A stretch of 64,000 bases of DNA. Source: a virus. The notes under the pieces were generated by a model. That model saw only the letters and a list, made by a program, of their open reading frames with translations, searched no databases and was not told the DNA's origin. The DNA lies in the IMG/VR virus record IMGVR_UViG_3300048855_000013, positions 1 to 64,000 of that record. One strand, given 5' to 3'. Of this stretch, positions 27,722 to 51,911 are shown in pieces. The translations under genes were made by a program, and so were the position numbers. How positions within the stretch are numbered: the stretch's first letter is position 1; every line of letters starts with the position of its first letter.

Positions 27722-27727
27722 ACATAT

Positions 27728-27876: not shown

Positions 27877-27879
27877 CGC

Positions 27880-27907: not shown

Positions 27908-27913
27908 AGAGGA

Positions 27914-28192
27914 ATGGTTTACACACGAGAGCAGCGCAAGGTCTATCAGGCAGAGTATCGTCGGAAGCGGCGAGATGAAGCCGTAGAGTATCTAGGCGGC
28001 ACGTGCGTCGTCTGCGGTACAACAGACCGGCTAGAAATCAACCATATTGATCCGCGCGAGAAGGCATTCAACCCTTCCCGTTTCTGGGGAAAGCTGGCAG
28101 ATTACTGGACAGAGATTGACAAGTGCAACCTTCTGTGCAAAGATCATCATGTAGAAGAAACAAGACGGCAGTACCGCGAGGGACTGCTATAA
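27914..28192 (+). CDS. HNH endonuclease embedded in the tRNA array
   Basis: CVVCG...EINHIDP...CNLLCKDHH. Confidence 0.6.
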   Translation: MVYTREQRKVYQAEYRRKRRDEAVEYLGGTCVVCGTTDRLEINHIDPREKAFNPSRFWGKLADYWTEIDKCNLLCKDHHVEETRRQYREGLL

Positions 28193-28264
28193 CTCTCCGT
28201 TGGGTAGGTTACCTGGCGCTGGCCGTAACCCAGTAGCCTGAGACTTCGAGTGTTTCCGGGGAGA
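28193..28264 (+). tRNA. tRNA with probable anticodon GTA (Tyr-type, class I length) and a short D-loop
   Basis: Acceptor CTCTCCG/CGGGGAG, AC GCTGG-CCGTAAC-CCAGT, T GAGAC-TTCGAGT-GTTTC. Confidence 0.4.
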
Positions 28265-28396
28265 CGCAACACAAGAGGGACTCAGCGCCTACGACCAGCT
28301 GAATACAGGATCACGACCCCACCGTGCGGCCTACGCTCTAGCAGCGTAAGCTGAACACATTGTTCCCCACCCTCCTCCGGGATTGGTGGGGCATTT

Positions 28397-28468
28397 GCCC
28401 TCAGAGCTTTGCAGGTAAAGCGCCTGGCTGAAACCCAGGAGTCATCGGTTCAAAACCGGTTGAGGGCA
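28397..28468 (+). tRNA. tRNA-Phe (GAA)
   Basis: Acceptor GCCCTCA/TGAGGGC, D GCTT/AAGC, AC CCTGG-CTGAAAC-CCAGG, T ATCGG-TTCAAAA-CCGGT. Confidence 0.7.
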
Positions 28469-28530
28469 CAGGGAATCATAACCTTGTCAGTTCAAAACAA
28501 CCCTACAAAAGATTCAGGGAACTGTCGTAT

Positions 28531-28616
28531 GGCCTAGTGGTGAAATTTGGTATACGCACTGCGCTTAGAACGCAGCGCCTTCGGGCATGTCGGTTCGATC
28601 CCGACCTGGGCTACCA
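28531..28616 (+). tRNA. tRNA-Leu (TAG), type II, CCA encoded
   Basis: Acceptor GGCCTAG/CTGGGCT-A-CCA, AC CTGCG-CTTAGAA-CGCAG, variable-arm hairpin GCC-TTCG-GGC, T GTCGG-TTCGATC-CCGAC. Confidence 0.7.
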
Positions 28617-28618
28617 TT

Positions 28619-28776
28619 TGACAAACAAGAAAAAGTATGGGAAGATTGATTCATGAACGTAACGCAGGGAACCACAAGTAAGCGAGGCCAGTCGGTCATC
28701 GTGTCCTTTGTGGTCCTCTAATAACAGTTCCTGTTATCACACCGACCCTCTTGACACCGCCAGGAGGGTCTTTTTT
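28619..28776 (+). other. promoter-like TTGACA, then a 22-codon mini-ORF, then a rho-independent terminator (GACCCTC...GAGGGTC + T6). The cassette sits inside the tRNA array.
   Basis: Read directly. Terminator stem at 28744..28770 with T-run to 28776. Confidence 0.35.
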
Positions 28777-28778
28777 AT

Positions 28779-28863
28779 GGCGTGTAAAGCTCTAATGGTT
28801 GGGCACTAGTCTTGAAAACTAGGGGTCGGGAAACCGGCAGGGGTTCGATTCCTCTGCGCGCCG
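28779..28863 (+). tRNA. tRNA-Ser (TGA), type II
   Basis: Acceptor GGCGTGT/GCGCGCC, AC CTAGT-CTTGAAA-ACTAG, variable-arm hairpin GTCGG-GAAA-CCGGC, T AGGGG-TTCGATT-CCTCT. Confidence 0.65.
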
Positions 28864-28902
28864 CTTGTTCAGGAACACTGAACTGAACGAAAAACTGAAC
28901 AT

Positions 28903-28987
28903 GGCTAGTAAACCGTGAAGGTCACGGACCTCCCTGCTAAGGAGCGTGCTCGGGAAACCGGGTGGGAATCGTTCTCTCTGCTAGCCG
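28903..28987 (+). tRNA. tRNA-Ser (GCT)-like, type II, with a truncated T-loop (GGGAA-TCG-TTCTC). Possible pseudogene.
   Basis: Acceptor GGCTAGT/GCTAGCC perfect. AC loop CTGCTAA. Confidence 0.35.
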
Positions 28988-29000
28988 CGCAACACACTAA

Positions 29001-29072
29001 CCCCTTGTAGCTCAGAAGCAGAGCAGGCGGCTCTTACCCGTCGGGCCGGGATGGCAGAATTCCCCAGGGGGA
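29001..29072 (+). tRNA. tRNA-Lys (CTT)-like with a non-canonical T-loop (GGCAGAA)
   Basis: Acceptor CCCCTTG/CAGGGGG, D GCTC/GAGC, AC GGCGG-CTCTTAC-CCGTC. Confidence 0.4.
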
Positions 29073-29088
29073 CGTAACAACTAAATAT

Positions 29089-29162
29089 GGGACATATGCC
29101 GATATGGTGCGGCGTCAGGCTTCCACCCTGAAATAGAGCGAGTTCGAGCCTCGCATGTCTCT
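29089..29162 (+). tRNA. tRNA-Gly (TCC)
   Basis: Acceptor GGGACAT/ATGTCTC, D GCCG/CGGC, AC TCAGG-CTTCCAC-CCTGA, T GCGAG-TTCGAGC-CTCGC. Confidence 0.65.
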
Positions 29163-29166
29163 CTTT

Positions 29167-29235
29167 CGTCCTCGCATCGGCATGCAACCGAACTTTACAC
29201 GTTTGGTCTACAGGGTTCGACACCCTGGGGGACGA
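29167..29235 (+). tRNA. tRNA-Val (TAC)-like, 69 nt with a shortened D-arm
   Basis: Acceptor CGTCCTC/GGGGACG, AC CGAAC-TTTACAC-GTTTG, T CAGGG-TTCGACA-CCCTG. Confidence 0.4.
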
Positions 29236-29267
29236 CAATGGTATTACGTCCATTCAAAACGTAGTTG

Positions 29268-29340
29268 TGCCCCTATAGCTTAATGGGCAAAGCATGTGTC
29301 TTGTAAACACAAGTCAGGAGTTCGAATCTCCGTGGGGGCT
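29268..29340 (+). tRNA. tRNA-Thr (TGT)
   Basis: Acceptor GCCCCTA/TGGGGGC, D GCTT/AAGC, AC TGTGT-CTTGTAA-ACACA, T AGGAG-TTCGAAT-CTCCG. Confidence 0.65.
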
Positions 29341-29386
29341 CTGTGCAACTTTTATGGTAACACCGATTACAACAATAACTAAACAT

Positions 29387-29460
29387 GCCGCTATAGCTCA
29401 GCAGGACAGAGCAGATGCCTACGAAGCATCGTGTCGGGGGTTCGAATCCCTCTAGCGGCA
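29387..29460 (+). tRNA. tRNA-Arg (ACG)
   Basis: Acceptor GCCGCTA/TAGCGGC perfect, D GCTC/GAGC, AC GATGC-CTACGAA-GCATC, T GGGGG-TTCGAAT-CCCTC. Confidence 0.7.
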
Positions 29461-29521
29461 CAATAGAGAGTGTGCAGCCCGGTAGGATGGACGCATAAGA
29501 TGAAACCGCACTCCTAGATTT

Positions 29522-29592
29522 ACCCGATTAGTGTAACGGCAACACGTCTGACTCTGAATCAGATAGTCTTGGTTCGAATCCAGGATCGGGTG
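29522..29592 (+). tRNA. tRNA-Gln (CTG)
   Basis: Acceptor ACCCGAT/ATCGGGT perfect, D GTGT/ACAC, AC TCTGA-CTCTGAA-TCAGA, T CTTGG-TTCGAAT-CCAGG. Confidence 0.7.
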
Positions 29593-29637
29593 CGTTAGAA
29601 TAGACTTATCGAGCGATAAGTCAAGTGTAATGTACAT

Positions 29638-29708
29638 ACCGGGTAAAGACACTGGCCGTCTAGCGCTCTTTTAAAGCGTGAGAAGGAGTTCGATTCTCCT
29701 ATCCGGTA
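29638..29708 (+). tRNA. tRNA-Lys (TTT)
   Basis: Acceptor ACCGGGT/ATCCGGT, D AGAC/GTCT, AC GCGCT-CTTTTAA-AGCGT, T AGGAG-TTCGATT-CTCCT. Confidence 0.7.
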
Positions 29709-29712
29709 CTGT

Positions 29713-29784
29713 GCCGATGTGGCTGAATGGTTCAGGCAGCGGATTGCAAACCCGCGTACTCCGGTTCGATCCCGGACTTCGGCT
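29713..29784 (+). tRNA. tRNA-Cys (GCA)
   Basis: Acceptor GCCGATG/CTTCGGC (one T-T mismatch), AC GCGGA-TTGCAAA-CCCGC, T TCCGG-TTCGATC-CCGGA. Confidence 0.55.
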
Positions 29785-29788
29785 CTTT

Positions 29789-29855
29789 CCCGCTAGTCGT
29801 GGATGCACGAGGGTGTTCTAAGCCTAGAGTCTCGGTTCGATTCCGAGTAGTGGGA
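29789..29855 (+). tRNA. tRNA-Arg (TCT)-like, 67 nt with a 4-nt D-loop
   Basis: Acceptor CCCGCTA/TAGTGGG, D CGTG-GATG-CACG, AC AGGGT-GTTCTAA-GCCTA, T CTCGG-TTCGATT-CCGAG. Confidence 0.35.
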
Positions 29856-29871
29856 CTCATATTGGAGGAAT

Positions 29872-30561
29872 ATGACGAACGTTATGGTGGCTACCCCTGC
29901 TTATGGGGGCCAAGTCACAGAGCCTTACCTACAGTCGATGCTGAATCTGGTCTTCGAGTCTCACCGACTCGGCTTCAAGATCAACGTTCACACGCTGACA
30001 GGTGAGTCCCTCATCACGAGGGCACGCAACAACATGCTCCACACCTTCCTATCGCAGCCTGAGTACGATCAGCTACTGTGGATTGACTCGGATATCGGGT
30101 TTGCTCCACTCAATGCTCTTCGACTCATCCATAGTGAGCACGAGGTCACAGCAACACCTTACCCTCTCAAAGCTATCTGGTGGGATGCAGTGGCAGGTAG
30201 CACTGCTGCGGAGAAGCAACTCAGTGGCAAGCACTATGTGGTCAATCGGATCGGTGACGAGAAGGATGAAAACGGCTTCTCTGAGGTCATGGATGCTGGC
30301 ACCGGGTTCATGTGCATCAAGCGATCAGCCCTAGAGAAGATGATTGATGCTTATCCTGAGCTACAGTACACGTCAGATGGCAACAATCACAACGAAGACG
30401 AAGACCGTAAGCGCTACCTGTTCTTCGACACTATGGTAGACGATGGGCGTTATCTCTCCGAGGACTACGCCTTCTGCCGTCGCTGGCAGAGAATCGGTGG
30501 TAAGGTCATGCTGGACATGAGTGCACCGCCGCTCCGACACTTCGGAAACTACGCCTACTAG
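29872..30561 (+). CDS. putative GT-A fold glycosyltransferase (DxD-type) embedded in the tRNA array
   Basis: LWIDSDIGF DxD-like motif. N-terminal MVATPAYGG. RBS GGAGGAAT. Confidence 0.4.
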   Translation: MTNVMVATPAYGGQVTEPYLQSMLNLVFESHRLGFKINVHTLTGESLITRARNNMLHTFLSQPEYDQLLWIDSDIGFAPLNALRLIHSEHEVTATPYPLKAIWWDAVAGSTAAEKQLSGKHYVVNRIGDEKDENGFSEVMDAGTGFMCIKRSALEKMIDAYPELQYTSDGNNHNEDEDRKRYLFFDTMVDDGRYLSEDYAFCRRWQRIGGKVMLDMSAPPLRHFGNYAY

Positions 30562-30568
30562 GCGTTAT

Positions 30569-30642
30569 TGGCAATAGCTCAGCTGGTTGCTGAGGGCAAC
30601 CTGATAAGCTGCTTGAGGTGGGTTCGATCCCCGCATTGCCAA
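30569..30642 (+). tRNA. tRNA-Ile (GAT)
   Basis: Acceptor TGGCAAT/ATTGCCA perfect, D CTCA/TGAG, AC GCAAC-CTGATAA-GCTGC, T GTGGG-TTCGATC-CCCGC. Confidence 0.65.
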
Positions 30643-30654
30643 CTCTCTGTGAAT

Positions 30655-37954: not shown

Positions 37955-38419
37955 ATGGCAAATGTCTACCCAGTAGACTACACGTCCGATGTCGGTCGTG
38001 TTCGTAAGTTTATTCCAGATGTCACTCTGCTAGGCGACCCGGCTAACCCGTTCGCTGAGCCAGATTACATCTGGTCTGATGAAGCACTACAGTCATTTAT
38101 TGATGACGAGCTACCCGTAGCTTGGGTGTCTGGCGCAGCCGCACCTCGCGTGACCATCTGGCGCGCAGCTGCTATGGCAATGATCGCTACAGCGAATGAT
38201 GTCAACCTTACACTCAAGAAGCTCGTTACAGAAGACCTTGAAACTGACGGTCCAGCTGTTGCAGACAAGCTCATCAAGGCAGCACACGAACTGCTTGGTA
38301 AGGCTCTGATCGAAGAGAACGGCGCAGCTAGCGAAGAGATTTTCTTGACTGTATTCCCTGAGCCCACTACCCGTCACCCCGAGGGTACCGAATGGGTCAA
38401 CTTCTGGAGCACTCACTAA
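37955..38419 (+). CDS. head-tail connector (putative)
   Basis: Synteny. Confidence 0.35.
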   Translation: MANVYPVDYTSDVGRVRKFIPDVTLLGDPANPFAEPDYIWSDEALQSFIDDELPVAWVSGAAAPRVTIWRAAAMAMIATANDVNLTLKKLVTEDLETDGPAVADKLIKAAHELLGKALIEENGAASEEIFLTVFPEPTTRHPEGTEWVNFWSTH

Positions 38420-38916
38420 TGGCACTGCGTGGTAATGGGGTGTTCCACCCGAACTTCTTCTACATGCCTCGACCTACTGTCGAGAGCGCGATGATTACTG
38501 CGGTGAGAGTTTCTAAGCCCACAGGTAACGTAGCTAAGTGGACACCAGGTACCGGCATGTCATCAGGAATCTATGTGCCTGTCTGGGAGGGACGCGCTCG
38601 TATCCAGCCTAATAAGGACTGGCGAGCCCGCCCGCGTGAGCAGGTCGGAGAGTTCGATGCTGTTCACGCCATCCGTGTGCAGCTACCCATCGGCAAGAAT
38701 GAATACGGTGGAACCTACGACGACGAGGCCAACCTAGTTGCCTATGGACCTGACCCTGAGTTTTATAAGGATTACATGGTCGAGGTAGTGGATACCACTG
38801 TCATTGGTGCTGAGCAGCTGGAGGGCGACGTGTACTACATCCGCAACGCTAAGACCAGCGCAAACCTCTGGCTCTACAACCTTCTATGTGATACAGGAAC
38901 TCGCTCCAGTGGCTGA
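38419..38916 (+). CDS. head-tail joining protein (putative)
   Basis: Synteny. TAATG overlap. Confidence 0.35.
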   Translation: MALRGNGVFHPNFFYMPRPTVESAMITAVRVSKPTGNVAKWTPGTGMSSGIYVPVWEGRARIQPNKDWRARPREQVGEFDAVHAIRVQLPIGKNEYGGTYDDEANLVAYGPDPEFYKDYMVEVVDTTVIGAEQLEGDVYYIRNAKTSANLWLYNLLCDTGTRSSG

Positions 38917-39325
38917 TGGACTCAACTTCTTCACCGATCTGAATAAGCTCGCGCAGAGTGTCTCTGCCGCGCCTGACAAGATCGATGACAATGTTGCTGA
39001 AATCGTTGAGACTGCTCTAAAGCATGCAGCCGATTCTGTTCGAGACATCGTGAATGATCCCGGTGGGCGGGGCACCAAGAAGGGTGGCCCTCGTGTGCTA
39101 TCCGGTGAGATGCTTGAATCCGTGGGATACGACATGGGCATGAACCGTCGTGGTCGCATCCAGGGTAAGTATGGATTCGTGCACGGAGCACCGTTCTGGA
39201 CTAAGTATCAGGAGCGTGGTACTAGCCGTATCCCTGCCATGATGGCGCTCGCAACTACTAACCAGAGCTTTGTAGATGAACTAGAAGATCAGCTACAGAG
39301 CGGACGATGGATGGACGTGATCTAA
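38906..39325 (+). CDS. tail completion or neck protein (putative, GTG start)
   Basis: Synteny. Confidence 0.3.
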   Translation, partial: PVADGLNFFTDLNKLAQSVSAAPDKIDDNVAEIVETALKHAADSVRDIVNDPGGRGTKKGGPRVLSGEMLESVGYDMGMNRRGRIQGKYGFVHGAPFWTKYQERGTSRIPAMMALATTNQSFVDELEDQLQSGRWMDVI

Positions 39326-39762
39326 TGGCAGACTTTGAAACTGTACAAGACGCTCTTCTAACCCGTCTTCGAACCTCGCAAATTCCGAACGTGTTCGAGA
39401 CTTCCGTACCTCCCGGATTCCTTCTGCCCAAGCAGAACGGTGTCCACCTTCCCTACGCTCTTATCACCTTCGGTGGTAAGTCGCCTATGGCGAACCGCTA
39501 TAAGAACCTCCAGAGTACCAAGCTGGATGCCAAGTGGACGAGTGTAGCTGTTGAATGCGTTGGTGACAGCCAGCGTGATTGCCGTACAGTGAGCAAGATT
39601 GTGCGTAACCTCTTCGAGGGGTACTCACCTGACATCACTTGGGGCGAACTAGAGGAGCAGCTGAGCGGTGACTACACCGTGAAGGTTCCTGAGTACGAAC
39701 TGTGGCCTGTCCGATACGCCACAGGGATCGTCTTCAATACTGTGGTAGACACAGCAAGTTAG
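39307..39762 (+). CDS. tail terminator (putative)
   Basis: Synteny. Confidence 0.35.
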   Translation: MDGRDLMADFETVQDALLTRLRTSQIPNVFETSVPPGFLLPKQNGVHLPYALITFGGKSPMANRYKNLQSTKLDAKWTSVAVECVGDSQRDCRTVSKIVRNLFEGYSPDITWGELEEQLSGDYTVKVPEYELWPVRYATGIVFNTVVDTAS

Positions 39763-39789
39763 ACGGATATACATATATCATGCTATAAT
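39759..39789 (+). promoter_or_regulatory. internal promoter with extended -10 (TGcTATAAT) ahead of the major tail genes
   Basis: Read directly. Confidence 0.35.
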
Positions 39790-39841
39790 TGAGCAGGACA
39801 AATTCGCTCTGCCTGACTTCCTCTAAGGAGGGGAACCTTAC

Positions 39842-40354
39842 ATGCCAACCAAGATGCTCAACCCGAACACTACGCTAATCGTGGTGCCCGAGTCTTTCAT
39901 CACGAACCCGGCTGCTCCGAGTGCGGCAGTGCTGAATGGTGTCAACGCCATCAACATCTCGTGCGCAGTTACTCGTGGGTATACTCTGAACCCAACCGAC
40001 TCTGACACAGACGACACTGCGTCGATCTGCGACACCGGAAACGTTCAGACTCGCCTCTTCGATAACTACGAGGGCGAAGTGACCATGTTCCGCGATGCGA
40101 ACATTGCCGACAACACTTCTATCTTCAACATCGCGTTCAACTACTTCAAGAATGTTGACCAGCGCTACTACGTCTTCCGCCGCCTTGGCAAGAAGAGCAC
40201 CGTAGCTATCGCAGTTGGTGACCTGCTTGAAGGCTTCCTATTCACCAACGACCGCACACGTAGTGTGGATGGTGGAGACTCCGGTCCCATCCAGTTCACT
40301 GTGCCTATGCTTCCTCAGGGAATCTACACTGGCTACGTCGCAGCTGTTGCCTAA
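39842..40354 (+). CDS. major tail protein (short form)
   Basis: 170 aa. Same N-terminus MPTKMLNPNTTL as the next gene. Strong RBS AAGGAGGGG. Confidence 0.6.
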   Translation: MPTKMLNPNTTLIVVPESFITNPAAPSAAVLNGVNAINISCAVTRGYTLNPTDSDTDDTASICDTGNVQTRLFDNYEGEVTMFRDANIADNTSIFNIAFNYFKNVDQRYYVFRRLGKKSTVAIAVGDLLEGFLFTNDRTRSVDGGDSGPIQFTVPMLPQGIYTGYVAAVA

Positions 40355-40364
40355 GGAGTAATCT

Positions 40365-41135
40365 ATGCCTACCAAGATGCTCAACCCCAACACTACCCTG
40401 TGGGTAGTGCCTGTGGCGAACGTGGTGAACCCACTAGCGCCTACAGCTGCCGAGCTAAACAACGCTCCGGCTATCAACATCTCGTGTGCCGTGACCCGTG
40501 GCTACACGCTGAACCCTACAGACTCAGACACTGACGACACCGCCAGCATCTGTGACACTGGTAACGTCCAGACCCGTCTGTTTGACAACTACGAGGGAGA
40601 GCTTACACTCTTCCGTGAGGGTAACCTCGCTGACGCTGCCTCTGTGTATGCGACATCGTTTGCTTACTTCCGTGACCCGGACAAGCAGTTCTACATCTAC
40701 CGTCGTCTAGGCAAGAAGAGCACGCTCGCTGCCGCTGATGGCGATATCGTTGAGGGCTTCCTGTTCACCAATGACCGCGTTCGCTCGGTCGATGGTGGCG
40801 ACTCTGGCCCTATCCAGTTCACCGTGCCACTCCTTGCACAGGGATCGTACCTTGGGTACACCTACGTGGGTACTGTGGTCGCTCCGACTGTGACTGCCGT
40901 CAGCCCCACAACCGGTGGAACCGCTGGTGGATTCGCCGTCACTGCAACAGGTACTGGCTTCGGCTCAGCATACTCTGTACAGGTCGGAACCACTGTCGTT
41001 CCTGCCACTGTGGTGAACGCCACTACCATCACGTTCATCTCCCCGGCACAGACCTCGGGAGTCAAGAACGTGCGTGTCACCAACCCGGCTGGTATCTCGG
41101 CAACTGCCACAGGTAACCAGATTACATACTCGTAA
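40365..41135 (+). CDS. major tail protein paralogue with C-terminal Ig-like domain
   Basis: About 170 aa collinear and highly similar to the previous gene, plus about 85 aa of Ig-like extension (VTAVSPTTGGTAGGFAVTATGTGFG...VRVTNPAG). Confidence 0.6.
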   Translation: MPTKMLNPNTTLWVVPVANVVNPLAPTAAELNNAPAINISCAVTRGYTLNPTDSDTDDTASICDTGNVQTRLFDNYEGELTLFREGNLADAASVYATSFAYFRDPDKQFYIYRRLGKKSTLAAADGDIVEGFLFTNDRVRSVDGGDSGPIQFTVPLLAQGSYLGYTYVGTVVAPTVTAVSPTTGGTAGGFAVTATGTGFGSAYSVQVGTTVVPATVVNATTITFISPAQTSGVKNVRVTNPAGISATATGNQITYS

Positions 41136-41221
41136 TAGTAGGTTTGACAACAGCAATATAAATTGCTACAATGAGGGAGTCGTCATCATGACGACTCCCT
41201 TATTCGTTTCTGGAGGAAACA

Positions 41222-41815
41222 TTGTCTTTTGAAATCGCTGCCCCTGACATCGCCGTAGTTGATGAGGCTCTCAACTCAGAAGAGTTCGATGTCCTGGCAT
41301 TCGTTCGTGGGGCCAATCTTCCTACCGACACTGAGACTATCTTCACCGATGCTGATGCAGCTGTTCGTATGGCTGCCTTGCTCGAAGAGGAAGAACACGC
41401 CGAGAACGACCCGTACAGCATCACTGACGGAAACGACGCTATCGATGATGAGCTTACTGAGCTTCACGAGCGTCTGGTGGAGAGCGCCCTGGAGTTCACG
41501 CTACAGGGACTTGCTCCTCGTGCTCGTGTAGCGCTGGAGAATCACCTCAAGGCTACCCTTCCCTACAAGGAGGGCGACCTCAACCCTGAGTATTACGAGG
41601 CACTGACCAACGAGGTTGTTGCTCGCAGCATCAAGAGCGTCACCAACGCAGCGTCTGGTAAGACCAGCACCGCCGCCTGGGACGCCACAAAGGTAGCTGA
41701 CTTCTTCGTAGACCTTTATCCCACCGAGCAGGCTAAGCTTTACAACAAGGCAATGGGTCTGACTTACATCCAGGCTGAGGTGTTCGACCGAGCGGTCAAC
41801 GCGGATTTCTCGTAG
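41222..41815 (+). CDS. tail assembly chaperone (TTG start)
   Basis: Acidic protein between the major tail and tape-measure genes. Confidence 0.45.
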   Translation: MSFEIAAPDIAVVDEALNSEEFDVLAFVRGANLPTDTETIFTDADAAVRMAALLEEEEHAENDPYSITDGNDAIDDELTELHERLVESALEFTLQGLAPRARVALENHLKATLPYKEGDLNPEYYEALTNEVVARSIKSVTNAASGKTSTAAWDATKVADFFVDLYPTEQAKLYNKAMGLTYIQAEVFDRAVNADFS

Positions 41816-41820
41816 AGGCG

Positions 41821-42234
41821 TTGACGTGGGATCAGAACCTTCGCTATCTAACTAGATTGCAGTCGGCTGTTGACCACGGACAGCGCCCTACTGCCGCTCT
41901 CCTCGAAGAGGATGACCCGCATAAGGGTTGGACATCTCACGATTACAGACTCCAAGAAGCCGTAGACATTCTCAGTCGCGACAAGTGCCAGTCATGCGGT
42001 AATCCGGTGTGGCTATGTCACTCAACACATGCCGGTATCGAATTCGATATCCGTGTTGGTGCCTGCTACGCAAAGGCCGAACTCGATGACTTCGAGAAGG
42101 CACACCCTGGCACCGAGGATACCCTCGAATCTGGTGAATATCGTTATGCCGTAGCAGTGGGCATTCTGAACGAGGATGGCACTCGCGATCCTCTTCCCTC
42201 CCGAGCAGAAGCCCTAGCTGTGCTCAAGTCCTAA
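41821..42234 (+). CDS. second tail assembly chaperone-like protein (TTG start, -1 frame relative to the previous gene)
   Basis: Frames overlap over 41779..41815, but no canonical slippery heptamer was seen. Confidence 0.35.
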   Translation: MTWDQNLRYLTRLQSAVDHGQRPTAALLEEDDPHKGWTSHDYRLQEAVDILSRDKCQSCGNPVWLCHSTHAGIEFDIRVGACYAKAELDDFEKAHPGTEDTLESGEYRYAVAVGILNEDGTRDPLPSRAEALAVLKS

Positions 42235-42245
42235 GAAAGTAGTGT

Positions 42246-45200
42246 ATGGCTGACGATCTAAACATCAGAGGCTCTGTCGATATTCAGACGAGCGCCGCAC
42301 GACGAGCGATGAACGCGCTTGCTCGTGAGATTGAGTCATACAACAAGCTTACCGATAAGAGCAGCGCATCGGCTCGTGCCCAGCGCGCAGGTATCAAGCA
42401 GCTATCTGATACCGTCAACATGCTCACGCAGAACCTCGCTAAGGCTGAGGCTGCACAGAAGAAGCTCAACGCTACTTCAACTGGAAGCACCGTTCGTGCG
42501 CCACAGACAAGCACTCCTGTTGCCGATGCAGGTCTGAACGTATCAGACCGCGCAATGTCACAGGCGGCTAAGTACCGTGTAGATCAGCAGACAGAACTCA
42601 ACGCTAAGAAGCAGCAGGAAGCTGCTATCAATCAGCGCCTGGAAACTGAGTCTCGTGCTGCCCTGAACAATGCTCGCGCAGCGACAGAGAGTGTCAAGCA
42701 GCGCGTAGCTCTGGAGAATGCAGCCGCTGCCGCTGCCCGTCGTTCAGCCGATGCAGCTGAGAAGCACACGCAGCAGCTGAATGGAATGCGCTATGCGCTA
42801 TATGACGTGTCGCGCACCGCGACCGTCAGCTTCGCCGCGCTTACTGCGCTAGCTGTTGCCCCATTCGCTATTGCTGTACAGTGGGAGCGAGACTTCGCTA
42901 ACGTCCAGCGAACTGTTGGTGGCACCTCTGAGGAAATCAAGGCGCTCAAGCAGGACTTCGTAGGACTAGCTCAGACTATTCCTGAGAGTTGGGAAGAGCT
43001 AACCAACATCGGTACTCTGGCGGGACAGCTGGGTATCGCTCGTGAGCAGGTCACTGCGTTCACTGGCGTGGTGGCTAAGTTCTCGGCTACTACAGATGTG
43101 TCTACAAACGACGCTGCTACAGCGTTTGGTCGCCTTGACAACATCCTGCTTGACAGCAGTGGTAACTTCGAGGGACTTGCGTCCTCCGTGCTCCGCGTGG
43201 GTGTGAACTCGGTTGCTACTGAGTCTCAGATTCTCAAGATCAGCACACAGATCGCTTCAACCGCTAAGCTAGCGGGCTTTACTGCTGATGAAGTTATCGG
43301 TCTATCAGGTGCGCTTGCCTCTCTCGGTGTGCCTCCTGAGCTATCGCGTGGTGTTATCACCCGTGTCTTCGGACAGATCAGCCGCGCCATCTCTGAGGGT
43401 GGAACAAACCTCCAGCGCTTTGGTCAGCTGGCGGGCACCTCGGGAACAGAGTTTGCTGCTGCCTGGAATGCAGATGCCGCTGGCACCTTCCAGCAGCTGC
43501 TTGCGGGTATCAAGAGCGAGGGTCCAGCCGCTGAGGCTGCCATCCGTAGCCTGGGCATCACCTCTGTGCGTGACGTTCCTGTTCTTCTTCGTCTGGCTAA
43601 CTCGGGAACCGTTGTTGCTGACGCCTTCCGTGACGCTGCTATTGGTATGAAAGATGCTAGCGAACTGGGTGACCAGTACGCTATCATCGCTTCAACCATT
43701 GACAGCAAGATCAAGATTCTGGGCAACAGCCTACAGGCTCTTGGGGACGCTGTAGGTAGCGGTGGACTGCCCATCATCGGTAGCCTGCTTGACGCTATCA
43801 ATGAGCGCCTTGCACAGTTCACCGACTTCGCTAACACGGATGCTGGACGTTGGGTTACAAGCATCGGCCTTATCGTCGTTGCTGTGGGTGCCCTGCTGTC
43901 TGCTGTTGTTGCTATCGGTTCTATCAGTCTTGCTGGATACGCCGCTCTCATCACAGCGATGGTCGGACTCCAGACCAGTGCCGGTGGTGCGGCTATCAGC
44001 TTTGGTAGCATGAATGCTATGCTTGCAGCTACTGGACCTCTTGGGGCCAAGGCTGCAACAGCCATTCGCTTGCTGGGTACTGCTCTCAAGGCAGCCTCGG
44101 TTATCGGACTGGTGCTGGCCTTCCCTGACGTTGTAGGCTGGGCTCGTGAGGGTCTAGACACGCTCAAGGGCTGGGAGAATACCTACGCTGCTACGATGAA
44201 GCGTGTCACCGAGGTCAACAGTGACTACGCCAGCGGACTATCGAACATCAACGCTGATGCTCCTATCGCTGCCGTAGCCAAGATGAACGACTTCCTTCGT
44301 GGCTCTAGCCGTCTCTTCGCTAATGCTAACCTCAGCTGGGATGCCAGCATCAACGAGGTCAAGAAGCTCGATGATCAGCTAGCCCAGCTAGCCGCCAACG
44401 GCTCTGTGCAGGATCTTCGCGACAAGTTCCAGGAACTGCGTGATGCTACTCCTGAGCTTACATTCAAGCAGCTAATGGATACCCTTCCTGCCCTGCGCGA
44501 CTCAATGACCGCTGCTGGTCTGAGCTTTGGCACAGGTGCTGATGGAGCGGTTACCCTAACTGGTGCTGCTACCGGAACAACCGCAGCTGTCGAGCAGCTG
44601 ACCGAGGCCGAGGAAGAGGCCAACCAGGCTACCCAGGATTTGCTGGATACGTTCGCTAGCGCGGATGCCTCATTCATTGACATTGGTACGATCTACGACA
44701 GCATGATCGAGGCCAACAAGAAGCTGGCTCAGGATACAGCTGACGACACCCTTGAGAATGCTTCGGACTCGTGGCAGGACTACTTCGACGGATTCACTAT
44801 CAATGTCGATGAGTACCTAGCTAACCTACAGAAGATGGTAGACGCCCAGAATAACTGGGAGAAGAACCTACTCACACTCAAGGCAGCCGGTGCTTCTGAT
44901 GAGGTACTGTCTGAGCTATCCAAGCTCGGTGTCGAGGGTGCTCCTCTCGTACAGCAGTTCGTGGATGGACTGGTCAACGGTACTGGGCAGCTGGATACCT
45001 TCACCGAAATTCTCGGCCAAAAGGGTACAGACGCAACAACTGCGTTTGCCACAGCTCTCCAGACAGCTGGGCCTGCGTTCTGGGCCGAGGCTGGTAAGCT
45101 GGGTGACGGTGCCGTACAGGAAATCATCGCCAAGCTTGCTAGCGGCCAGTCTACTGTCGAGCAGATCGTCAAGGACTACAACCTCGACCTAGAGTTCGGG

Positions 45201-45992
45201 ATCAGTCCAGTTGTCGATCCTGCAAAGCAGCAGATTGCCCAGCAGACGCTGATCGATCTTGCCAAGGAACAGGGCGTAGACTACAACCCGTCTGTGCTTG
45301 AGGTTCCGAGCGCAACAGTACAGGCTGCCCTTGACGCACTGGCTAAGGCTCGTGACGCTAAGTACAGCCCCCAGACGGTAGAGACTGCTAAGGCTGCTGT
45401 GGCAGCCGCGCTCGCTGAGCTAGCAGCTACACGTAACCCACTCATCAACCCTGTCGGTAGCAGTAGCTTCTCGGTTATCGAGAACGCGCTCAACGACCTA
45501 GCTCGTGACCGCTATACATCGGTCATTGCCAGCTTCCGTGTTGATGGAGCTATCCCGCCTGGGATCGCTCGACCACCAGGAACCTACAACGGTGGGCTAG
45601 TCGGGGAAGTCCACGGCCTACCAGGATTTGCTGGCGGTGGGTTGGTGGGCGGTGCTCGTGCAGCACAGCGCTATCAGGACACACTGGTGGCGACCCTACG
45701 TCCGCGTGAGTTTGTCGTACAGGAAGATGCCGTGGACCACTATGGTAAGGGCTTCTTCAACGCACTCAACAATCGAGCGCTCGATACGAGCGACTTCATG
45801 CGCCCTGTGCCTGTGGCTCAGCGCCGCAGCAACGGTGGCGGGCCACAGCTGGTTGAACTTGTCGCCAGCGACAAGGCTCTGCTCGCATCGCGCGCCGGGT
45901 CTGGCGTGGCTGTTGTCACATTCGCACCGAGCGAAGCCGCTGCGGCAGCTAGCAAGGGCAACACATCGAACTTCAAGAAGGGTGGGAACTAA
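42246..45992 (+). CDS. tape measure protein
   Basis: 1248 aa, Ala-rich coiled coils and TM segments. Confidence 0.8.
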   Translation: MADDLNIRGSVDIQTSAARRAMNALAREIESYNKLTDKSSASARAQRAGIKQLSDTVNMLTQNLAKAEAAQKKLNATSTGSTVRAPQTSTPVADAGLNVSDRAMSQAAKYRVDQQTELNAKKQQEAAINQRLETESRAALNNARAATESVKQRVALENAAAAAARRSADAAEKHTQQLNGMRYALYDVSRTATVSFAALTALAVAPFAIAVQWERDFANVQRTVGGTSEEIKALKQDFVGLAQTIPESWEELTNIGTLAGQLGIAREQVTAFTGVVAKFSATTDVSTNDAATAFGRLDNILLDSSGNFEGLASSVLRVGVNSVATESQILKISTQIASTAKLAGFTADEVIGLSGALASLGVPPELSRGVITRVFGQISRAISEGGTNLQRFGQLAGTSGTEFAAAWNADAAGTFQQLLAGIKSEGPAAEAAIRSLGITSVRDVPVLLRLANSGTVVADAFRDAAIGMKDASELGDQYAIIASTIDSKIKILGNSLQALGDAVGSGGLPIIGSLLDAINERLAQFTDFANTDAGRWVTSIGLIVVAVGALLSAVVAIGSISLAGYAALITAMVGLQTSAGGAAISFGSMNAMLAATGPLGAKAATAIRLLGTALKAASVIGLVLAFPDVVGWAREGLDTLKGWENTYAATMKRVTEVNSDYASGLSNINADAPIAAVAKMNDFLRGSSRLFANANLSWDASINEVKKLDDQLAQLAANGSVQDLRDKFQELRDATPELTFKQLMDTLPALRDSMTAAGLSFGTGADGAVTLTGAATGTTAAVEQLTEAEEEANQATQDLLDTFASADASFIDIGTIYDSMIEANKKLAQDTADDTLENASDSWQDYFDGFTINVDEYLANLQKMVDAQNNWEKNLLTLKAAGASDEVLSELSKLGVEGAPLVQQFVDGLVNGTGQLDTFTEILGQKGTDATTAFATALQTAGPAFWAEAGKLGDGAVQEIIAKLASGQSTVEQIVKDYNLDLEFGISPVVDPAKQQIAQQTLIDLAKEQGVDYNPSVLEVPSATVQAALDALAKARDAKYSPQTVETAKAAVAAALAELAATRNPLINPVGSSSFSVIENALNDLARDRYTSVIASFRVDGAIPPGIARPPGTYNGGLVGEVHGLPGFAGGGLVGGARAAQRYQDTLVATLRPREFVVQEDAVDHYGKGFFNALNNRALDTSDFMRPVPVAQRRSNGGGPQLVELVASDKALLASRAGSGVAVVTFAPSEAAAAASKGNTSNFKKGGN

Positions 45993-49601: not shown

Positions 49602-51911
49602 ATGGTAGACACACTACCTCCAATCAATCTGCCTGATGCGGCTCTGCCGTGGGCAAAGGAAGTGGAACGCCGTCTACGCCAGACCTCTACGCGAGTTCGT
49701 CAGACAGCAGATCAGCAGCAGGCAACCGCCTCTGCTGTTTCTGCTGCTAACGACTCAGCTACACACGCTGCCGTTCAGATCAACGACGACCGTCGTGTGC
49801 CTGCGCAGACTGGTGGTGTCGCTGCTGTAGGGGATGGCTACTACGACAACGACGGTGTGTCCCGTGGATACGTCACCGTTACCTGGGATGTGGCGCTACT
49901 TGGTGCTGATGGCGCGGAGATGACAGGCGTTCAGTATGAGGTCTGGTATCGTAACTCCAGTGAGCCTGAGTCGGCTATGCGCCGCTCAACTACGACTGCT
50001 GACATCAGCACTCGTATCAACAACCTAGAGACTGCCAAGGTCTACTACATCCAGGTCCGTACGCTTTCTGCCACAGGAGTTCCCGGAGCATTCTCACCTA
50101 TCGTCACTGCGACGACTGCTGTACCCTCCACTGTGCCTCCAGCGCCCACAGCGCCTCAGCTGGCGTCTTCGCTCGGTACTGTGGCAGCTACGTGGGATGG
50201 ACTAGACTCTACAGCAGCACCTATGCCCAAGTGGGTGAACAAGGTTCAGCTGTATGTGTCTACTACTGCGGGAGGAACCTACACAGCAACAGGTCCGCAG
50301 CTGCTCAAGGCTGGTACGGTCACCATCACAGGACTCACTGTCGGATCGACCTACTACTTCAAGTGGGCTGGTGTAGCCTACACGGGCACTGTTGGCACGC
50401 TGTCGGCCTCAAATTCCACAACCGTCCAGGGTATCGCCCCCGTTGATATTAGTGGCCTGACGGCTAACCTGGCGACGATGAACGCCAACACAGCTAACGC
50501 ATTCGCCAATGCTAACGCTGCATTTGCGCAGGCTAATACTGCATCTGCGTATGCATCTTCAATCGTAGCGTCATCCCCCGATATGTTCAGCAACCCTGGA
50601 TTTGAGGATGACTCCTTCTGGACGCTGACTGGTAGTTCAATCTACAGCACTGCACAGTCACACACTGGGCTGCGTAACGTTATCACTGGTGGAGCACTAG
50701 GTGAGATTCTGTCTCCGCTGTTTCCCACTATTGCAGGAACAGCGTATCGTGTCACCTACTGGGTGTACTCGGGTTCTGTGCCTGCGGGTGGGATTCGAGT
50801 AGCTAACTCTGCTGGTGCAACTATCGGCGGACTACAGCTAGCCCTCACCAACACAGGCAACACCTGGCAGAAGGTCGTTTACGAGTTCGTAATCCCTGCT
50901 GGGGTAACGCAGTTCAGGATTCGGTGGGCATCCTCATCAGGGACATGGCGTCTAGATGATGTATCGCTGCTAGACATCACAGATATCTATTACGCATCTC
51001 TCAACTCTGAGGCTGCGTATGACCAGGCCAATACTGCTACAAGCGATGCGGCAAACGCCGCTGCTAACGCAGCAACAGCCCAGTCCACAGCTAATGGTAA
51101 GAGCACCACCTATCGCAGCGCCGACGCTGCACCTACAACAGGTCTACCCGGCATCTATCGCGAGGGTGACCTGTGGTTTCAGTATGTTGGTGGTGTCATT
51201 GTCGGGCAGTGGCGCTTTACCTCAGGATCGTTCTCGTCACAGCCTATCGACAACGCAGTCATTGCGAACCTCGATGCGGGTAAGATCAACACTGGACTAC
51301 TGAGTGCTGATCGTATTGGAGTAGGCTCGCTTGATGCTAAGGTACTTACGGCCAACACTGCTTATGCCTATGAACTCATCGTGCCTGGTAGCATCGTTGC
51401 TAACCTTATGGATGTGGGATCGGTCACAGCGGGAGCTATTGCTGTAGGAGCCATCCAGGCTATTCACATGGATGTAGACTCGGTGACATCCAACGCTATT
51501 GCGTCGGGCAACATTCTAACCAACCACATTGGTGCCGGTCAGGTTGTCACCTCGCATCTTGCAGCTGACGTAGGTGGACAGCTGGACATCAGTGCCAACG
51601 ACTCGGTGAACATCATCGTGGGTCAGATCGGTGCCGTGTCCAACACTGCCACAGCTACGGCAGATAGCCTAGATGACATGCAGACCTTCTATCAGTTCGG
51701 TCCAACCGGAGCCGTTATTTCTAGCCCCGACTCACTGACTGCTCTTGCTCTCCGCAATGACCGTATCGAAATTCTCCAGTCAGGTGCTGTGGTGTCGTAC
51801 TGGAACGCCGGTCAGATGTTCGTCAAGTCGTTCGTTGGTGAAGAGGTTATCCTCGGTAACCACAAGATTGAAAAGTATGGTACTGGTACCGTAGTAAGGA
51901 GCCTTAGCTAA
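49602..51911 (+). CDS. minor tail protein with fibronectin-III-like domain(s)
   Basis: YEVWYRN...YYIQVRTLSATGVPGAFSP FN3-like segment. 769 aa. Confidence 0.5.
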   Translation: MVDTLPPINLPDAALPWAKEVERRLRQTSTRVRQTADQQQATASAVSAANDSATHAAVQINDDRRVPAQTGGVAAVGDGYYDNDGVSRGYVTVTWDVALLGADGAEMTGVQYEVWYRNSSEPESAMRRSTTTADISTRINNLETAKVYYIQVRTLSATGVPGAFSPIVTATTAVPSTVPPAPTAPQLASSLGTVAATWDGLDSTAAPMPKWVNKVQLYVSTTAGGTYTATGPQLLKAGTVTITGLTVGSTYYFKWAGVAYTGTVGTLSASNSTTVQGIAPVDISGLTANLATMNANTANAFANANAAFAQANTASAYASSIVASSPDMFSNPGFEDDSFWTLTGSSIYSTAQSHTGLRNVITGGALGEILSPLFPTIAGTAYRVTYWVYSGSVPAGGIRVANSAGATIGGLQLALTNTGNTWQKVVYEFVIPAGVTQFRIRWASSSGTWRLDDVSLLDITDIYYASLNSEAAYDQANTATSDAANAAANAATAQSTANGKSTTYRSADAAPTTGLPGIYREGDLWFQYVGGVIVGQWRFTSGSFSSQPIDNAVIANLDAGKINTGLLSADRIGVGSLDAKVLTANTAYAYELIVPGSIVANLMDVGSVTAGAIAVGAIQAIHMDVDSVTSNAIASGNILTNHIGAGQVVTSHLAADVGGQLDISANDSVNIIVGQIGAVSNTATATADSLDDMQTFYQFGPTGAVISSPDSLTALALRNDRIEILQSGAVVSYWNAGQMFVKSFVGEEVILGNHKIEKYGTGTVVRSLS

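What the first reader, a model, noticed from the sequence alone, without database searches (positions are those of the whole stretch)
39759..41135. Tandemly duplicated major tail protein genes, the second with an Ig-like extension, behind their own extended -10 promoter
Two consecutive genes begin MPTKMLNPNTTL and are collinear for about 170 aa. The second adds about 85 aa of an Ig/Big-like domain. Other siphoviruses achieve the same two-form tail tube (with or without an Ig domain) by programmed frameshifting. Here it appears hard-wired by gene duplication, which may fix the ratio transcriptionally. TGcTATAAT upstream suggests boosted expression.
Basis: seen in the sequence. Interest (0 to 1): 0.6.

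Follow-up and report, generated by a model that had tools for sequence, protein, structure and literature searches.

The report
Paired tail-tube genes, one Ig-decorated
This phage carries two neighbouring copies of its tail-tube gene, the second ending in an antibody-like surface domain, an arrangement already seen in a few cultured soil-bacterium phages, so it is a real but only moderately unusual feature.

Summary
ORF A (39842-40354, 170 aa) and ORF B (40365-41135, 256 aa) are 74% identical over 165 aa. Both are Pfam Phage_TTP_16 tail tube proteins, and B adds an IPT/TIG domain (residues 174-255). They sit between the head-tail connector genes and the tail chaperone and tape-measure genes.

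All nine related metagenomic loci with enough flanking sequence keep the pair. dN/dS is 0.04-0.11 and synonymous sites are saturated, so the duplication is old and both copies are functional.

The two tube cores are nearly equivalent. The N-terminal arm and the long assembly loop are identical, which fits co-assembly into one tube with TIG on only some subunits.

The idea of transcriptional control of the ratio is not supported. The genes are 10 nt apart in one unit, and B's ribosome-binding site overlaps A's stop codon. The extended -10 box is conserved in position in relatives, and a conserved hairpin terminator follows B.

The arrangement has precedents. Clavibacter phages CMP1 (both products in virions by MALDI-TOF) and CN1A, and Stenotrophomonas phage Jojan60, have a short copy plus a Big_2-extended copy. 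Several actinobacteriophage clusters have annotated duplicated major tail proteins.

The window's pair is an independent, younger duplication with a different Ig-like domain. Interest is moderate.

The parts
39760..39789 (+). Promoter-like site: TAGACG (-35-like, 4 of 6), an 18-nt spacer, then the extended -10 TGcTATAAT (39781-39789).
   Evidence: scores it 10 of 12 with TG present. One search finds a single TGNTATAAT in the window. Extended -10 boxes lie at the equivalent position in L006, L007, L125, L009 and L010, and ahead of the small ORF in L126-128 and Yappy. Function is inferred, not shown.
39825..39831 (+). Shine-Dalgarno AAGGAGG of gene A, 10 nt before the ATG.
   Evidence: Read from the sequence. 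The same tcctc-AAGGAGGgg block is conserved in L125-L128.
39842..40354 (+). Gene A: tail tube (major tail) protein, 170 aa, tube domain only.
   Evidence: PF25595 E = 7.9e-32; PHROG 2491 E = 7.6e-38. Orthologs of 170 aa sit next to the long form in every related locus with enough flank. dN/dS among orthologs is 0.12.
40353..40358 (+). Shine-Dalgarno AAGGAG of gene B. It overlaps the TAA stop of gene A, and the intergenic spacer is 10 nt.
   Evidence: The TAAGGAG or TAAGGAT junction is conserved in all eight paired loci, which suggests translational coupling (inference).
40365..41135 (+). Gene B: tail tube protein with a C-terminal IPT/TIG Ig-like domain, 256 aa. The tube domain is residues 1 to about 168 and TIG is 174-255.
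   Evidence: PF25595 E = 4.7e-32 and PF01833 E = 2.8e-11. The AF2 model has pLDDT 79. Foldseek matches lambda gpV 7t4f_A over the whole length (E = 1.1e-5) and EBF1 TIG 3mqi_C (TM 0.82 on the target). There are 53 close long-form clusters of 66-100% identity.
41144..41172 (+). Second promoter-like box, TTGACA-17-(TG)cTACAAT, directly after gene B.
   Evidence: scores it 11 of 12 with TG present. It is conserved in L005, L006, L009, L010 and L124-L128.
41170..41214 (+). GC-rich hairpin (16-bp stem around GGGAGTCGTC/GACGACTCCC) with a U-rich tail. It is the likely intrinsic terminator that closes the A-B transcription unit.
   Evidence: For 41136-41225, dG is -34.3 kcal/mol, z = -6.1, and 0 of 200 shuffles fold as well. 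Every relative has a 10-16-bp hairpin plus a T-run at the same place, with different stem sequences. The generic terminator scan did not call it.
41222..42234 (+). Tail assembly chaperone pair: ORF1 41222-41815, and ORF2 41821-42234 in the -1 frame. This is downstream context.
   Evidence: PHROG 15960 and 20192. The single 357-position profile 20192 spans both ORFs.
42246..45992 (+). Tape measure protein, 1248 aa (context). It implies a tail of about 190 nm.
   Evidence: PF10145 is found in orthologs. The length estimate of 0.15 nm per residue is a rule of thumb.

Best explanation
Genes A and B are two functional paralogs of the tail tube protein. They are transcribed together as a short, highly expressed unit (promoter 39760-39789, terminator hairpin about 41170-41214) and translated in a coupled way.

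Both polymerise around the tape measure protein into the same tail tube. A supplies bare subunits. B supplies subunits that display one IPT/TIG Ig-like domain on the outside of the tube. The tube is therefore only partly decorated, probably near half.

This matches the outcome that SPP1 reaches by frameshifting (gp17.1 and gp17.1*). It also matches the domain budget of T5 pb6, which has two tube domains per Ig domain. The TIG domain most likely gives weak, accessory binding to cell-surface carbohydrate.

Shown: paralogy, domain content, conservation of the pair, purifying selection on both copies, operon layout, and near-equivalence of the tube cores. Inferred: that both are in the virion, that they co-assemble, the ratio, and the role of TIG.
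For: Identity and family:
- 74% identity, E = 5e-89.
- Both are Phage_TTP_16, and B also has TIG.
- The position is canonical: after the connector genes and before the chaperones and tape measure.

Both copies are kept and functional:
- All nine loci of this clade with enough flank carry both (window, L005, L006, L007, L124-L128).
- Many short and long clusters share contigs.
- Within-genome dN/dS is 0.04-0.11 and pS is about 0.70, which is saturated.
- Identical residues use the same codon no more often than chance (57 observed against 52-60 expected).

The tube cores are interchangeable:
- Residues 1-12 are 100% identical and residues 38-82 are 96% identical between A and B.
- Differences cluster in residues 13-37 and 83-129.
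- Residues 44-76 are the low-confidence long loop of the model. In other tail tube proteins this loop orders on assembly and is needed for tube formation (PMC5717097).
- Only 2 positions are fixed differently between 49 short and 53 long forms.

Operon:
- 10-nt spacer, with B's Shine-Dalgarno sequence overlapping A's stop.
- Conserved promoter box upstream and a conserved hairpin downstream.

Precedent in the same Pfam family:
- CN1A gp45 and gp44 ('contains Big_2'), and Jojan60.
- Fused two-domain relatives show that two such domains can work within one tube.
Against: - There is no protein-level evidence for this phage or its close relatives. It is known only from metagenome contigs.
- Sister lineages manage with a single gene. 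Some have only the long TIG form (L009, L010, L017) and some only the short form (Yappy, L016, L022). Neither form is structurally indispensable, and the benefit of having both is unexplained.
- The CMP1 precedent comes from a GenBank note. The paper itself could not be read.
- CMP1's paralogs are far more diverged (about 22% identity), so its assembly logic may differ.
- The promoter and terminator are consensus-level predictions. The tool's own terminator scan did not flag the hairpin.
Confidence: 0.72

Rival explanations
1. Ordered hetero-hexamer. A and B alternate within each ring (A3B3), giving a three-fold tube with three TIG domains per ring. This would be an unfused counterpart of T5 pb6. 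It is a sharper version of the best explanation, not a contradiction of it.
For: - The gene content equals pb6's domain budget of two tube domains plus one Ig-like domain (PMC5717097).
- The tight A-B junction points to roughly 1:1 synthesis.
- In the same Pfam family, a large set of 358-362-aa proteins fuses a 'copy 1' and a 'copy 2' domain through a linker of about 13 aa. The halves group with the respective copies at 99-100% bootstrap.
- The best whole-length fold matches of the fused protein are T5 pb6 chains.
Against: - In the window's clade the two cores are almost the same. Only two sites are fixed differently, and neither is an obvious interface signature. Nothing in the sequence would enforce alternation.
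- The fused proteins descend from the older CMP1/L059-type duplication, not from this one.
- The fused-protein model is poor (pLDDT 65) and its pb6 matches are weak (E about 1e-3, TM 0.33-0.38).
Confidence: 0.28
2. Division of labour. One paralog builds the bulk of the tube. The other is a minor, position-specific component, for example the first or last rings or an interface to the tail tip or terminator.
For: - Older paralog pairs in the family are strongly diverged (31-36% in L059 and Jojan60, about 22% in CMP1), which is compatible with distinct roles.
- A 2026 survey says of Rhodococcus phages with 2-3 major tail genes that it is not known whether all are present in virions (PMC13313380).
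Against: - Here the cores are 74-83% identical, with identical assembly loop and N-terminus and the same pattern of variable sites in both copies. This points to the same lattice environment.
- Both genes have strong Shine-Dalgarno sequences and share one transcript, which does not suit a minor component.
Confidence: 0.12
3. Alternative tails. Individual virions use either A or B, giving a mixed population with and without Ig decoration as a form of bet-hedging for adsorption.
For: Single-form relatives show that pure A-type and pure B-type tubes are both viable in this family.
Against: There is no switch, invertible segment or separate promoter between the genes. They are co-transcribed and coupled, so both proteins would be present in every infected cell. 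Their near-identical cores would then be expected to mix.
Confidence: 0.05
4. One copy is a decaying, redundant duplicate with no function.
For: None beyond the fact of the duplication.
Against: dN/dS is 0.04-0.12 for both copies. Both reading frames are intact in all nine loci. Synonymous sites are saturated, so the pair has persisted for a long time.
Confidence: 0.02

Closest known systems
Clavibacter phages CMP1 (gp27 and gp28) and CN1A (gp45 and gp44), and Stenotrophomonas phage Jojan60: a tandem short tail tube gene plus a tail tube gene with a C-terminal Big_2 domain
   Same: - Same Pfam family (Phage_TTP_16) for both genes.
- Same order: short copy first, Ig-extended copy second.
- Tiny spacer.
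- Same place in the tail module.
- Both CMP1 products are noted as found in virions by MALDI-TOF.
   Different: - The Ig-like domain is TIG here and Big_2 there, with no detectable homology (hhalign probability 0.8%).
- Paralogs are 74% identical here against 22-36% there.
- Both window copies resemble 'copy 1' of those pairs (42-48% against 27-34%), so this is a separate, younger duplication.
Duplicated major tail protein genes of actinobacteriophage clusters AM, AU, AW, BI, CC, DJ and EL (for example Arthrobacter phages Amigo and Molivia)
   Same: - Two major tail protein genes, which are adjacent in cluster AM.
- The AM copies belong to the same family and are 45-55% identical to the window's proteins.
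- The trait is stated in PMC11080557, PMC10652937 and bioRxiv 10.1101/2020.01.10.891226.
   Different: - Neither AM copy has an Ig-like extension (166 and 164 aa).
- The AM first and second copies form separate old groups.
- In AU and EL the two genes are not adjacent (Giantsbane 18 and 23; Damascus 17 and 19).
- The window has separate protease and capsid genes rather than the fused capsid-protease of those clusters.
Bacillus phage SPP1 gp17.1 and gp17.1*
   Same: Two tail tube forms share a tube domain, one with a C-terminal Ig-fold (FN3) domain. They co-assemble in one tube, and the decoration is dispensable (PMC8718954).
   Different: SPP1 makes both from one gene by translational frameshift, at 3:1, with identical cores. 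Here there are two genes with 74% identical cores and no frameshift.
Phage T5 pb6 (and DT57C): a duplicated-and-fused tail tube protein with one Big_2 domain, forming trimeric pseudo-hexameric rings
   Same: Two tube domains per Ig-like domain. It arose by duplication of the tube domain (PMC5717097).
   Different: pb6 is one polypeptide, whereas here there are two. There is no sequence relationship to pb6. A three-fold ring is untested here. Fused forms exist in this family, but in another lineage.
Phage lambda gpV
   Same: Tube domain plus C-terminal Ig-like domain. It is the best whole-length structural match of gene B (7t4f_A, E = 1.1e-5).
   Different: Lambda has a single gene, so every subunit is decorated. 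That resembles the single-long relatives L009 and L010, not the window.

Membership tests
Pfam PF25595 Phage_TTP_16 / PHROG 2491 (siphophage tail tube / major tail protein) | Profile match above the curated cut-off over the whole domain. | tested here: met
   A scores 110.9 bits and B scores 111.6 bits against a cut-off of 27, covering profile positions 8-166 of 167. PHROG 2491 gives E about 8e-38 for both.
Pfam PF25595 Phage_TTP_16 / PHROG 2491 (siphophage tail tube / major tail protein) | Gene position between the head-tail connector genes and the tail assembly chaperones and tape measure. | tested here: met
   DUF6093 and connector-like ORFs lie upstream. The chaperone pair is at 41222-42234 and the 1248-aa tape measure at 42246. 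The order is the same in Yappy, Amigo and CMP1.
Pfam PF25595 Phage_TTP_16 / PHROG 2491 (siphophage tail tube / major tail protein) | Tail-tube fold: a beta-sandwich flanked by a helix, plus a long loop. | tested here: met
   The AF2 model has pLDDT 79, with strands, one helix (94-102) and a disordered loop at 44-76. Foldseek matches lambda gpV chains 7t4f_A, 8iyk_D and 8iyd_A at E = 1e-5 to 3e-4. The TM score is only about 0.31 because the domain placement differs.
IPT/TIG Ig-like domain (PF01833) | Profile match above the cut-off, and an Ig-like fold. | tested here: met
   43.7 bits against a cut-off of 20.9, at residues 174-255. pLDDT is 89-98 over the domain. EBF1 IPT/TIG 3mqi_C gives rmsd 2.3 Å and TM 0.82 on the target.
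SPP1-type two-form tail tube | Two forms made from one gene by programmed translational frameshift. | tested here: not met
   There are two complete ORFs, each with its own Shine-Dalgarno sequence and ATG, and cores 74% identical with saturated synonymous differences.
SPP1-type two-form tail tube | Both forms present in one tail tube at a set ratio. | not testable with these tools
   This needs virion proteomics or cryo-EM.
T5 pb6-type pseudo-hexameric tube | Two tube domains in one polypeptide. | tested here: not met
   In the window they are separate genes. The feature is met only in distant relatives (L118 and P0121-P0240).
T5 pb6-type pseudo-hexameric tube | Rings of three-fold symmetry with alternating non-identical tube domains. 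| not testable with these tools
   No multimer modelling or experiment is available. Paralog-specific sites are too few to argue for it.
CMP1/CN1A-type tandem tail tube paralogs (short copy plus Ig-extended copy) | Two adjacent Phage_TTP_16 genes, with the second carrying a C-terminal Ig-like domain. | tested here: met
   Searches show the same architecture. The Ig-like domain here is TIG rather than Big_2.
CMP1/CN1A-type tandem tail tube paralogs (short copy plus Ig-extended copy) | Orthology of each copy to the corresponding CMP1-type copy, meaning one shared ancient duplication. | tested here: not met
   Both window copies are closer to 'copy 1' of L059, L107, Jojan60 and CMP1 than to 'copy 2'. 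The crown group containing both window copies, Yappy and the single-long forms has 100% bootstrap support and excludes those pairs.
CMP1/CN1A-type tandem tail tube paralogs (short copy plus Ig-extended copy) | Both products present in virions. | not testable with these tools
   This is known only for CMP1, from the GenBank note 'shown by Maldi-TOF'. The source paper is not held.

The most novel reading that the evidence does not exclude
The Phage_TTP_16 family may record repeated, independent runs of one evolutionary path: a single tail tube gene, then tandem near-identical paralogs, then strongly diverged paralogs with one Ig-decorated, then a fused two-domain protein of the T5 pb6 type. On this reading the window's clade is the youngest stage. 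Its A and B proteins would already assemble as ordered A3B3 rings, so the tube is three-fold and matches the three-fold tape measure and tail tip. That would make the origin of pseudo-hexameric tail tubes testable with living intermediates.
Probability: 0.25. Interest if true: 0.65.

Novelty: new variant of a known kind. Interest (0 to 1): 0.38.

Why it matters
Tail tubes are normally built from one protein. How phages set the density of Ig-like adhesion domains on the tube is known mainly from SPP1 frameshifting and from lambda and T5.

This locus shows a gene-duplication route to a partly decorated tube that has been stable across a large uncultured clade of soil and rhizosphere phages. Together with its relatives, it shows that duplication of this tube gene happened more than once. 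Two unrelated Ig-like domains (TIG and Big_2) ended up on the second copy each time.

It also gives a concrete target for an open point stated in the literature (PMC13313380): whether all copies of duplicated major tail proteins are in virions, and how they are arranged. The practical value is modest. It helps correct annotation of both genes as tail tube proteins, and the family is a good candidate for cryo-EM of a two-protein tube.

Tried and rejected
- **Near-identical DNA in cultured phages.** A megablast of 39300-42300 found nothing. The phage is known only from metagenomes.
- **Exact-protein look-up of P0001.** The 100% identical JGI protein, from a 70.5-kb contig, is not on record, so the source sample could not be named.
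- **Recent gene conversion as the cause of the identical central block.** Rejected. pS is 0.8-0.9 in that block, and same-codon use equals chance.
- **Selection against nucleotide identity between the tandem copies.** No signal beyond saturation: 427 same codons observed against 468 expected from the genes' own usage, and at or slightly above the expectation from other structural genes.
- **Paralog-specific interface residues that would argue for obligate alternation.** Only S27/T27 and V166/T166 were found.
- **Homology between the TIG and Big_2 extensions.** None.
- **Known RNA families in 38000-43000.** None at E ≤ 0.1.
- **Prophage or host assignment through genome contigs.** The only hit was a distant one in an Actinomyces MAG.
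- **A frameshift route in relatives.** None was seen. The apparent 206-aa extension in L019 is an ORF that runs out of frame into a second copy at a contig end.
- **Consensus folding of the terminator on a MAFFT alignment.** It gave a weak consensus (-2.7 kcal/mol) because the stems are out of register. Single-sequence folds were used instead.
- **The CMP1 paper.** It could not be retrieved.
Full report
**1. What is there**

The window carries two adjacent + strand ORFs. Gene A is 39842-40354 (170 aa) and gene B is 40365-41135 (256 aa). Both start MPTKMLNPNTTL and align without gaps over 165 residues at 74% identity (E = 5e-89).

Both match Pfam PF25595 Phage_TTP_16 (about 111 bits, cut-off 27) and PHROG 2491 'major tail protein'. 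B also matches PF01833 IPT/TIG at residues 174-255.

An AlphaFold2 model of B, built on 121 sequences, has mean pLDDT 79. The TIG domain is very confident, and there is a disordered loop at residues 44-76. The model matches lambda tube protein gpV over its whole length (7t4f_A, E = 1.1e-5). Its C-terminal part matches the EBF1 IPT/TIG domain (rmsd 2.3 Å).

The context is a normal siphophage tail module:
- terminase, portal, protease and capsid at 31.8-37.5 kb;
- connector-like ORFs;
- A and B;
- a chaperone pair, with the second ORF in the -1 frame;
- a 1248-aa tape measure and tail-tip proteins.

**2. The pair is conserved and both copies are under selection**

A protein search found 53 clusters of the 254-257-aa TIG form at 66-100% identity. 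It also found about 50 clusters of a roughly 170-aa form. Many of these lie on contigs of matching length, 61-70 kb.

Every fetched locus of this clade with enough upstream sequence has both genes in the same order. These are the window, L005, L006, L007/L008, L124 (where A is cut by the contig end, 90% identical to the window's A) and L125-L128.

Selection measures:
- Within genomes, A against B gives pS of about 0.70 (saturated) and dN/dS of 0.04-0.11.
- Among orthologs, dN/dS is 0.12 for A, 0.11 for the B tube domain and 0.30 for TIG.
- At residues identical in A and B, the same codon is used as often as chance predicts: 57 observed against 52-60 expected in the window.

There is therefore no recent gene conversion. 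The duplication is old, and neither copy is decaying.

**3. The two tube cores are nearly equivalent**

| Residues | Identity between A and B |
|---|---|
| 1-12 | 100% |
| 13-37 | 52% |
| 38-82 | 96% |
| 83-129 | 49% |
| 130-165 | 86% |

The invariant 38-82 block is acidic and contains DSDTDD. It coincides with the low-confidence long loop of the model. In T5, lambda and SPP1, the corresponding loops order on polymerisation and are required for tube formation (PMC5717097).

Across 49 short and 53 long forms, only two positions are fixed differently (S27/T27 and V166/T166). The same positions vary in both groups.

By inference, both proteins see the same lattice environment. This supports co-assembly in one tube. 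It argues against a specialised minor role for either copy.

**4. Regulation**

The 79-nt gap upstream of A holds TAGACG-18-TGcTATAAT (39760-39789). The bare pattern is not significant (0.6 expected per window). However, extended -10 boxes sit at the equivalent place in relatives:
- L006: TGGTAAACT;
- L125 and L007: TGGTATACT;
- the single-gene relatives L009 and L010: TTGACT-17-TGCTATAAT;
- L126-128 and phage Yappy, where the box lies ahead of an extra 60-65-aa ORF that precedes gene A.

A and B are 10 nt apart. B's AAGGAG overlaps A's TAA, and the junction TAAGGAG or TAAGGAT is conserved in all eight pairs. There is no room for separate transcriptional control, so any fixed ratio is translational.

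Directly after B comes TTGACA-17-TGcTACAAT (11 of 12 matches). It abuts a 16-bp hairpin with a U-rich tail (dG -34.3 kcal/mol, z = -6.1). The same sequence of box, hairpin and T-run occurs in 10 of 11 relatives with different stem sequences.

I read the hairpin as the terminator of a short A-B transcript. A start about 7 nt after the -10 would fall inside the 5' arm. Transcripts born at the second box would then lack a complete terminator and could run into the chaperone and tape-measure genes. This is inference only.

**5. Relatives show several architectures**

An HMM scan of all loci held at that point (L001-L123; later fetches are covered by their own calls), with follow-up, found these architectures:
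- a single short gene (Curtobacterium phage Yappy, several soil contigs, and an oral 181-aa group);
- a single long TIG gene (L009-L011, L017, L018);
- short plus short tandems (Arthrobacter cluster AM phages Amigo and Molivia, and many contigs);
- short plus long TIG (the window's clade);
- short plus long Big_2, with strongly diverged copies (L059, L061, L078, L085, L107, and the cultured phages CMP1, CN1A and Jojan60);
- a fused protein of about 360 aa with two Phage_TTP_16 domains (L118).

The fused form is a large family, with at least 120 clusters at 71-99% identity. Its N half groups with the first copies and its C half with the second copies of the Big_2-type pairs (99-100% bootstrap). 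Its low-confidence model (pLDDT 65) finds T5 pb6 chains as best whole-length matches (E about 1e-3).

Within-genome paralog identity forms a gradient:

| Pair | Identity between the two copies |
|---|---|
| Window's clade | 73-83% |
| Amigo | 62% |
| L047 | 54% |
| L049 | 48% |
| L059 | 36% |
| Jojan60 | 31% |
| CMP1 | about 22% |

**6. The window's duplication is independent**

Both window copies are closer to 'copy 1' than to 'copy 2' of the Big_2-type pairs (42-48% against 27-34%). They also fall in a crown group with Yappy and the single-TIG forms that has 100% bootstrap support.

TIG and Big_2 extensions show no detectable homology (hhalign probability 0.8%). The 'short first, Ig-extended second' layout therefore arose at least twice, with unrelated Ig-like domains.

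Resolution inside the crown group is poor (bootstraps of 5-55%). I cannot say whether the single-TIG lineage lost a short copy or the short copy lost TIG after duplication. One lineage (L007) has A and B as sisters (89%), which hints at local homogenisation or re-duplication.

**7. Comparison with what is known**

'Two' or 'duplicated' major tail proteins are reported as a trait of clusters AM, AU, AW, BI, CC, DJ and EL (PMC11080557; PMC10652937; bioRxiv 10.1101/2020.01.10.891226). A 2026 survey of Rhodococcus phages notes that it is unknown whether all copies are in virions (PMC13313380).

GenBank annotates CMP1 gp27 and gp28 both as 'major tail protein ... shown by Maldi-TOF'. It annotates CN1A gp44 as a major tail protein that 'contains Big_2'.

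Functionally, the nearest well-studied analogues are:
- SPP1 gp17.1 and gp17.1*, made by frameshift at 3:1, with a dispensable FN3 domain (PMC8718954);
- T5 pb6, with two fused tube domains plus one Big_2 domain, forming trimeric rings (PMC5717097);
- lambda gpV.

The window fails the defining frameshift feature of the SPP1 system and the single-polypeptide feature of pb6. It works like them in outcome but is not a member of either. It shares the architecture of the CMP1/CN1A kind but not its orthology.

**8. Verdict**

This is a real, conserved, functional pair of tail tube genes. They most likely build one tube with TIG on only part of the subunits (confidence about 0.7).
- The promoter reading is reasonable.
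- The 'transcriptional ratio' reading is wrong.
- The claim of an unusual hard-wired alternative to frameshifting is fair as a description, but it has cultured precedents.

Novelty: a new variant of a known kind. Interest: moderate (0.38). It would rise to about 0.65 if the ordered A3B3 reading and the series from single gene to tandem pair to fused protein hold.

**9. Limits**
- There are no protein-level data.
- Trees are neighbour-joining on about 167 columns.
- Promoter and terminator are sequence predictions.
- Multimer modelling was not available.
- The source sample and the host are not identified. The closest cultured relatives infect Micrococcales, close metagenomic relatives come from what appear, from my reading of the JGI sample numbers, to be rhizosphere or soil samples, and the window's G+C is 54.6%.

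Noticed in passing
window 41144-41214: A near-consensus promoter box (TTGACA-17-TGcTACAAT) sits immediately in front of the terminator hairpin that follows gene B, and overlaps it. The same order of box, hairpin and T-run is kept in 10 of 11 relatives, with different stem sequences. A transcript started there would begin inside the 5' arm and so might escape termination.
   Followed up: partly
L118 2501-3583 (IMGVR_UViG_3300031269_000071); proteins P0121-P0240: A large family of 358-362-aa proteins has two Phage_TTP_16 domains joined by a linker of about 13 aa. It is a fusion of the two paralogs of the CMP1/L059-type pair. The best whole-length fold matches are T5 pb6 chains, but the model is of low confidence.
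   Followed up: partly
L059, L061, L078, L085, L107; CMP1 (L130 2047-3410), CN1A (L131 1989-3292), Jojan60 (L129 1980-3250): This is a second, older lineage of 'short tube gene plus Ig-extended tube gene'. The extension is Big_2, unrelated to TIG, so the layout arose convergently. Both CMP1 products are noted as found in virions by MALDI-TOF.
   Followed up: yes
L009 4001-4765, L010 4001-4768, L017, L018: Sister phages of about 54-60 kb carry only one tube gene, the TIG-bearing form (50-59% identical to gene B). It has the same upstream promoter box and the same downstream box plus hairpin.
   Followed up: partly
window 39763-39841; L126 3274-3471, L127 3291-3476, L128 2870-3052, Yappy L001 3816-3995: Relatives have a 60-65-aa ORF ending ...NSSKEGK between the promoter and gene A. 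The window lacks it and keeps only the Shine-Dalgarno-coding 'SSKEG' stretch (39822-39836).
   Followed up: no
window 26596-30643: A cluster of 18 tRNA genes lies on the + strand, upstream of the structural module.
   Followed up: no
window 1206-2273 (-), 3457-4404 (-), 4900-6411 (-): These ORFs are an RNA ligase (RNA_lig_T4_1), a polynucleotide kinase-phosphatase (a tRNA-repair pair), and a nicotinamide/nicotinate phosphoribosyltransferase (NAD salvage).
   Followed up: no
window 41222-42234: The second chaperone ORF (41821-42234) is in the -1 frame of the first, and one PHROG profile (20192) spans both. This is the usual G/GT-type frameshift layout. No slippery site was identified in 41779-41815.
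   Followed up: no
L007/L008 3480-4768: In this lineage the short and long copies group with each other (89% bootstrap) rather than with their orthologs. This hints at a local gene conversion or a re-duplication.
   Followed up: no
window 49602-51911 and L125 1-1520: Further Ig-like or fibronectin-type decoration occurs elsewhere in the virion module of relatives (fn3 in a 694-aa protein upstream of the connectors in L125). Phage_cement_2-like decoration genes lie next to the capsid gene in L006, L009, L010 and L126.
   Followed up: no
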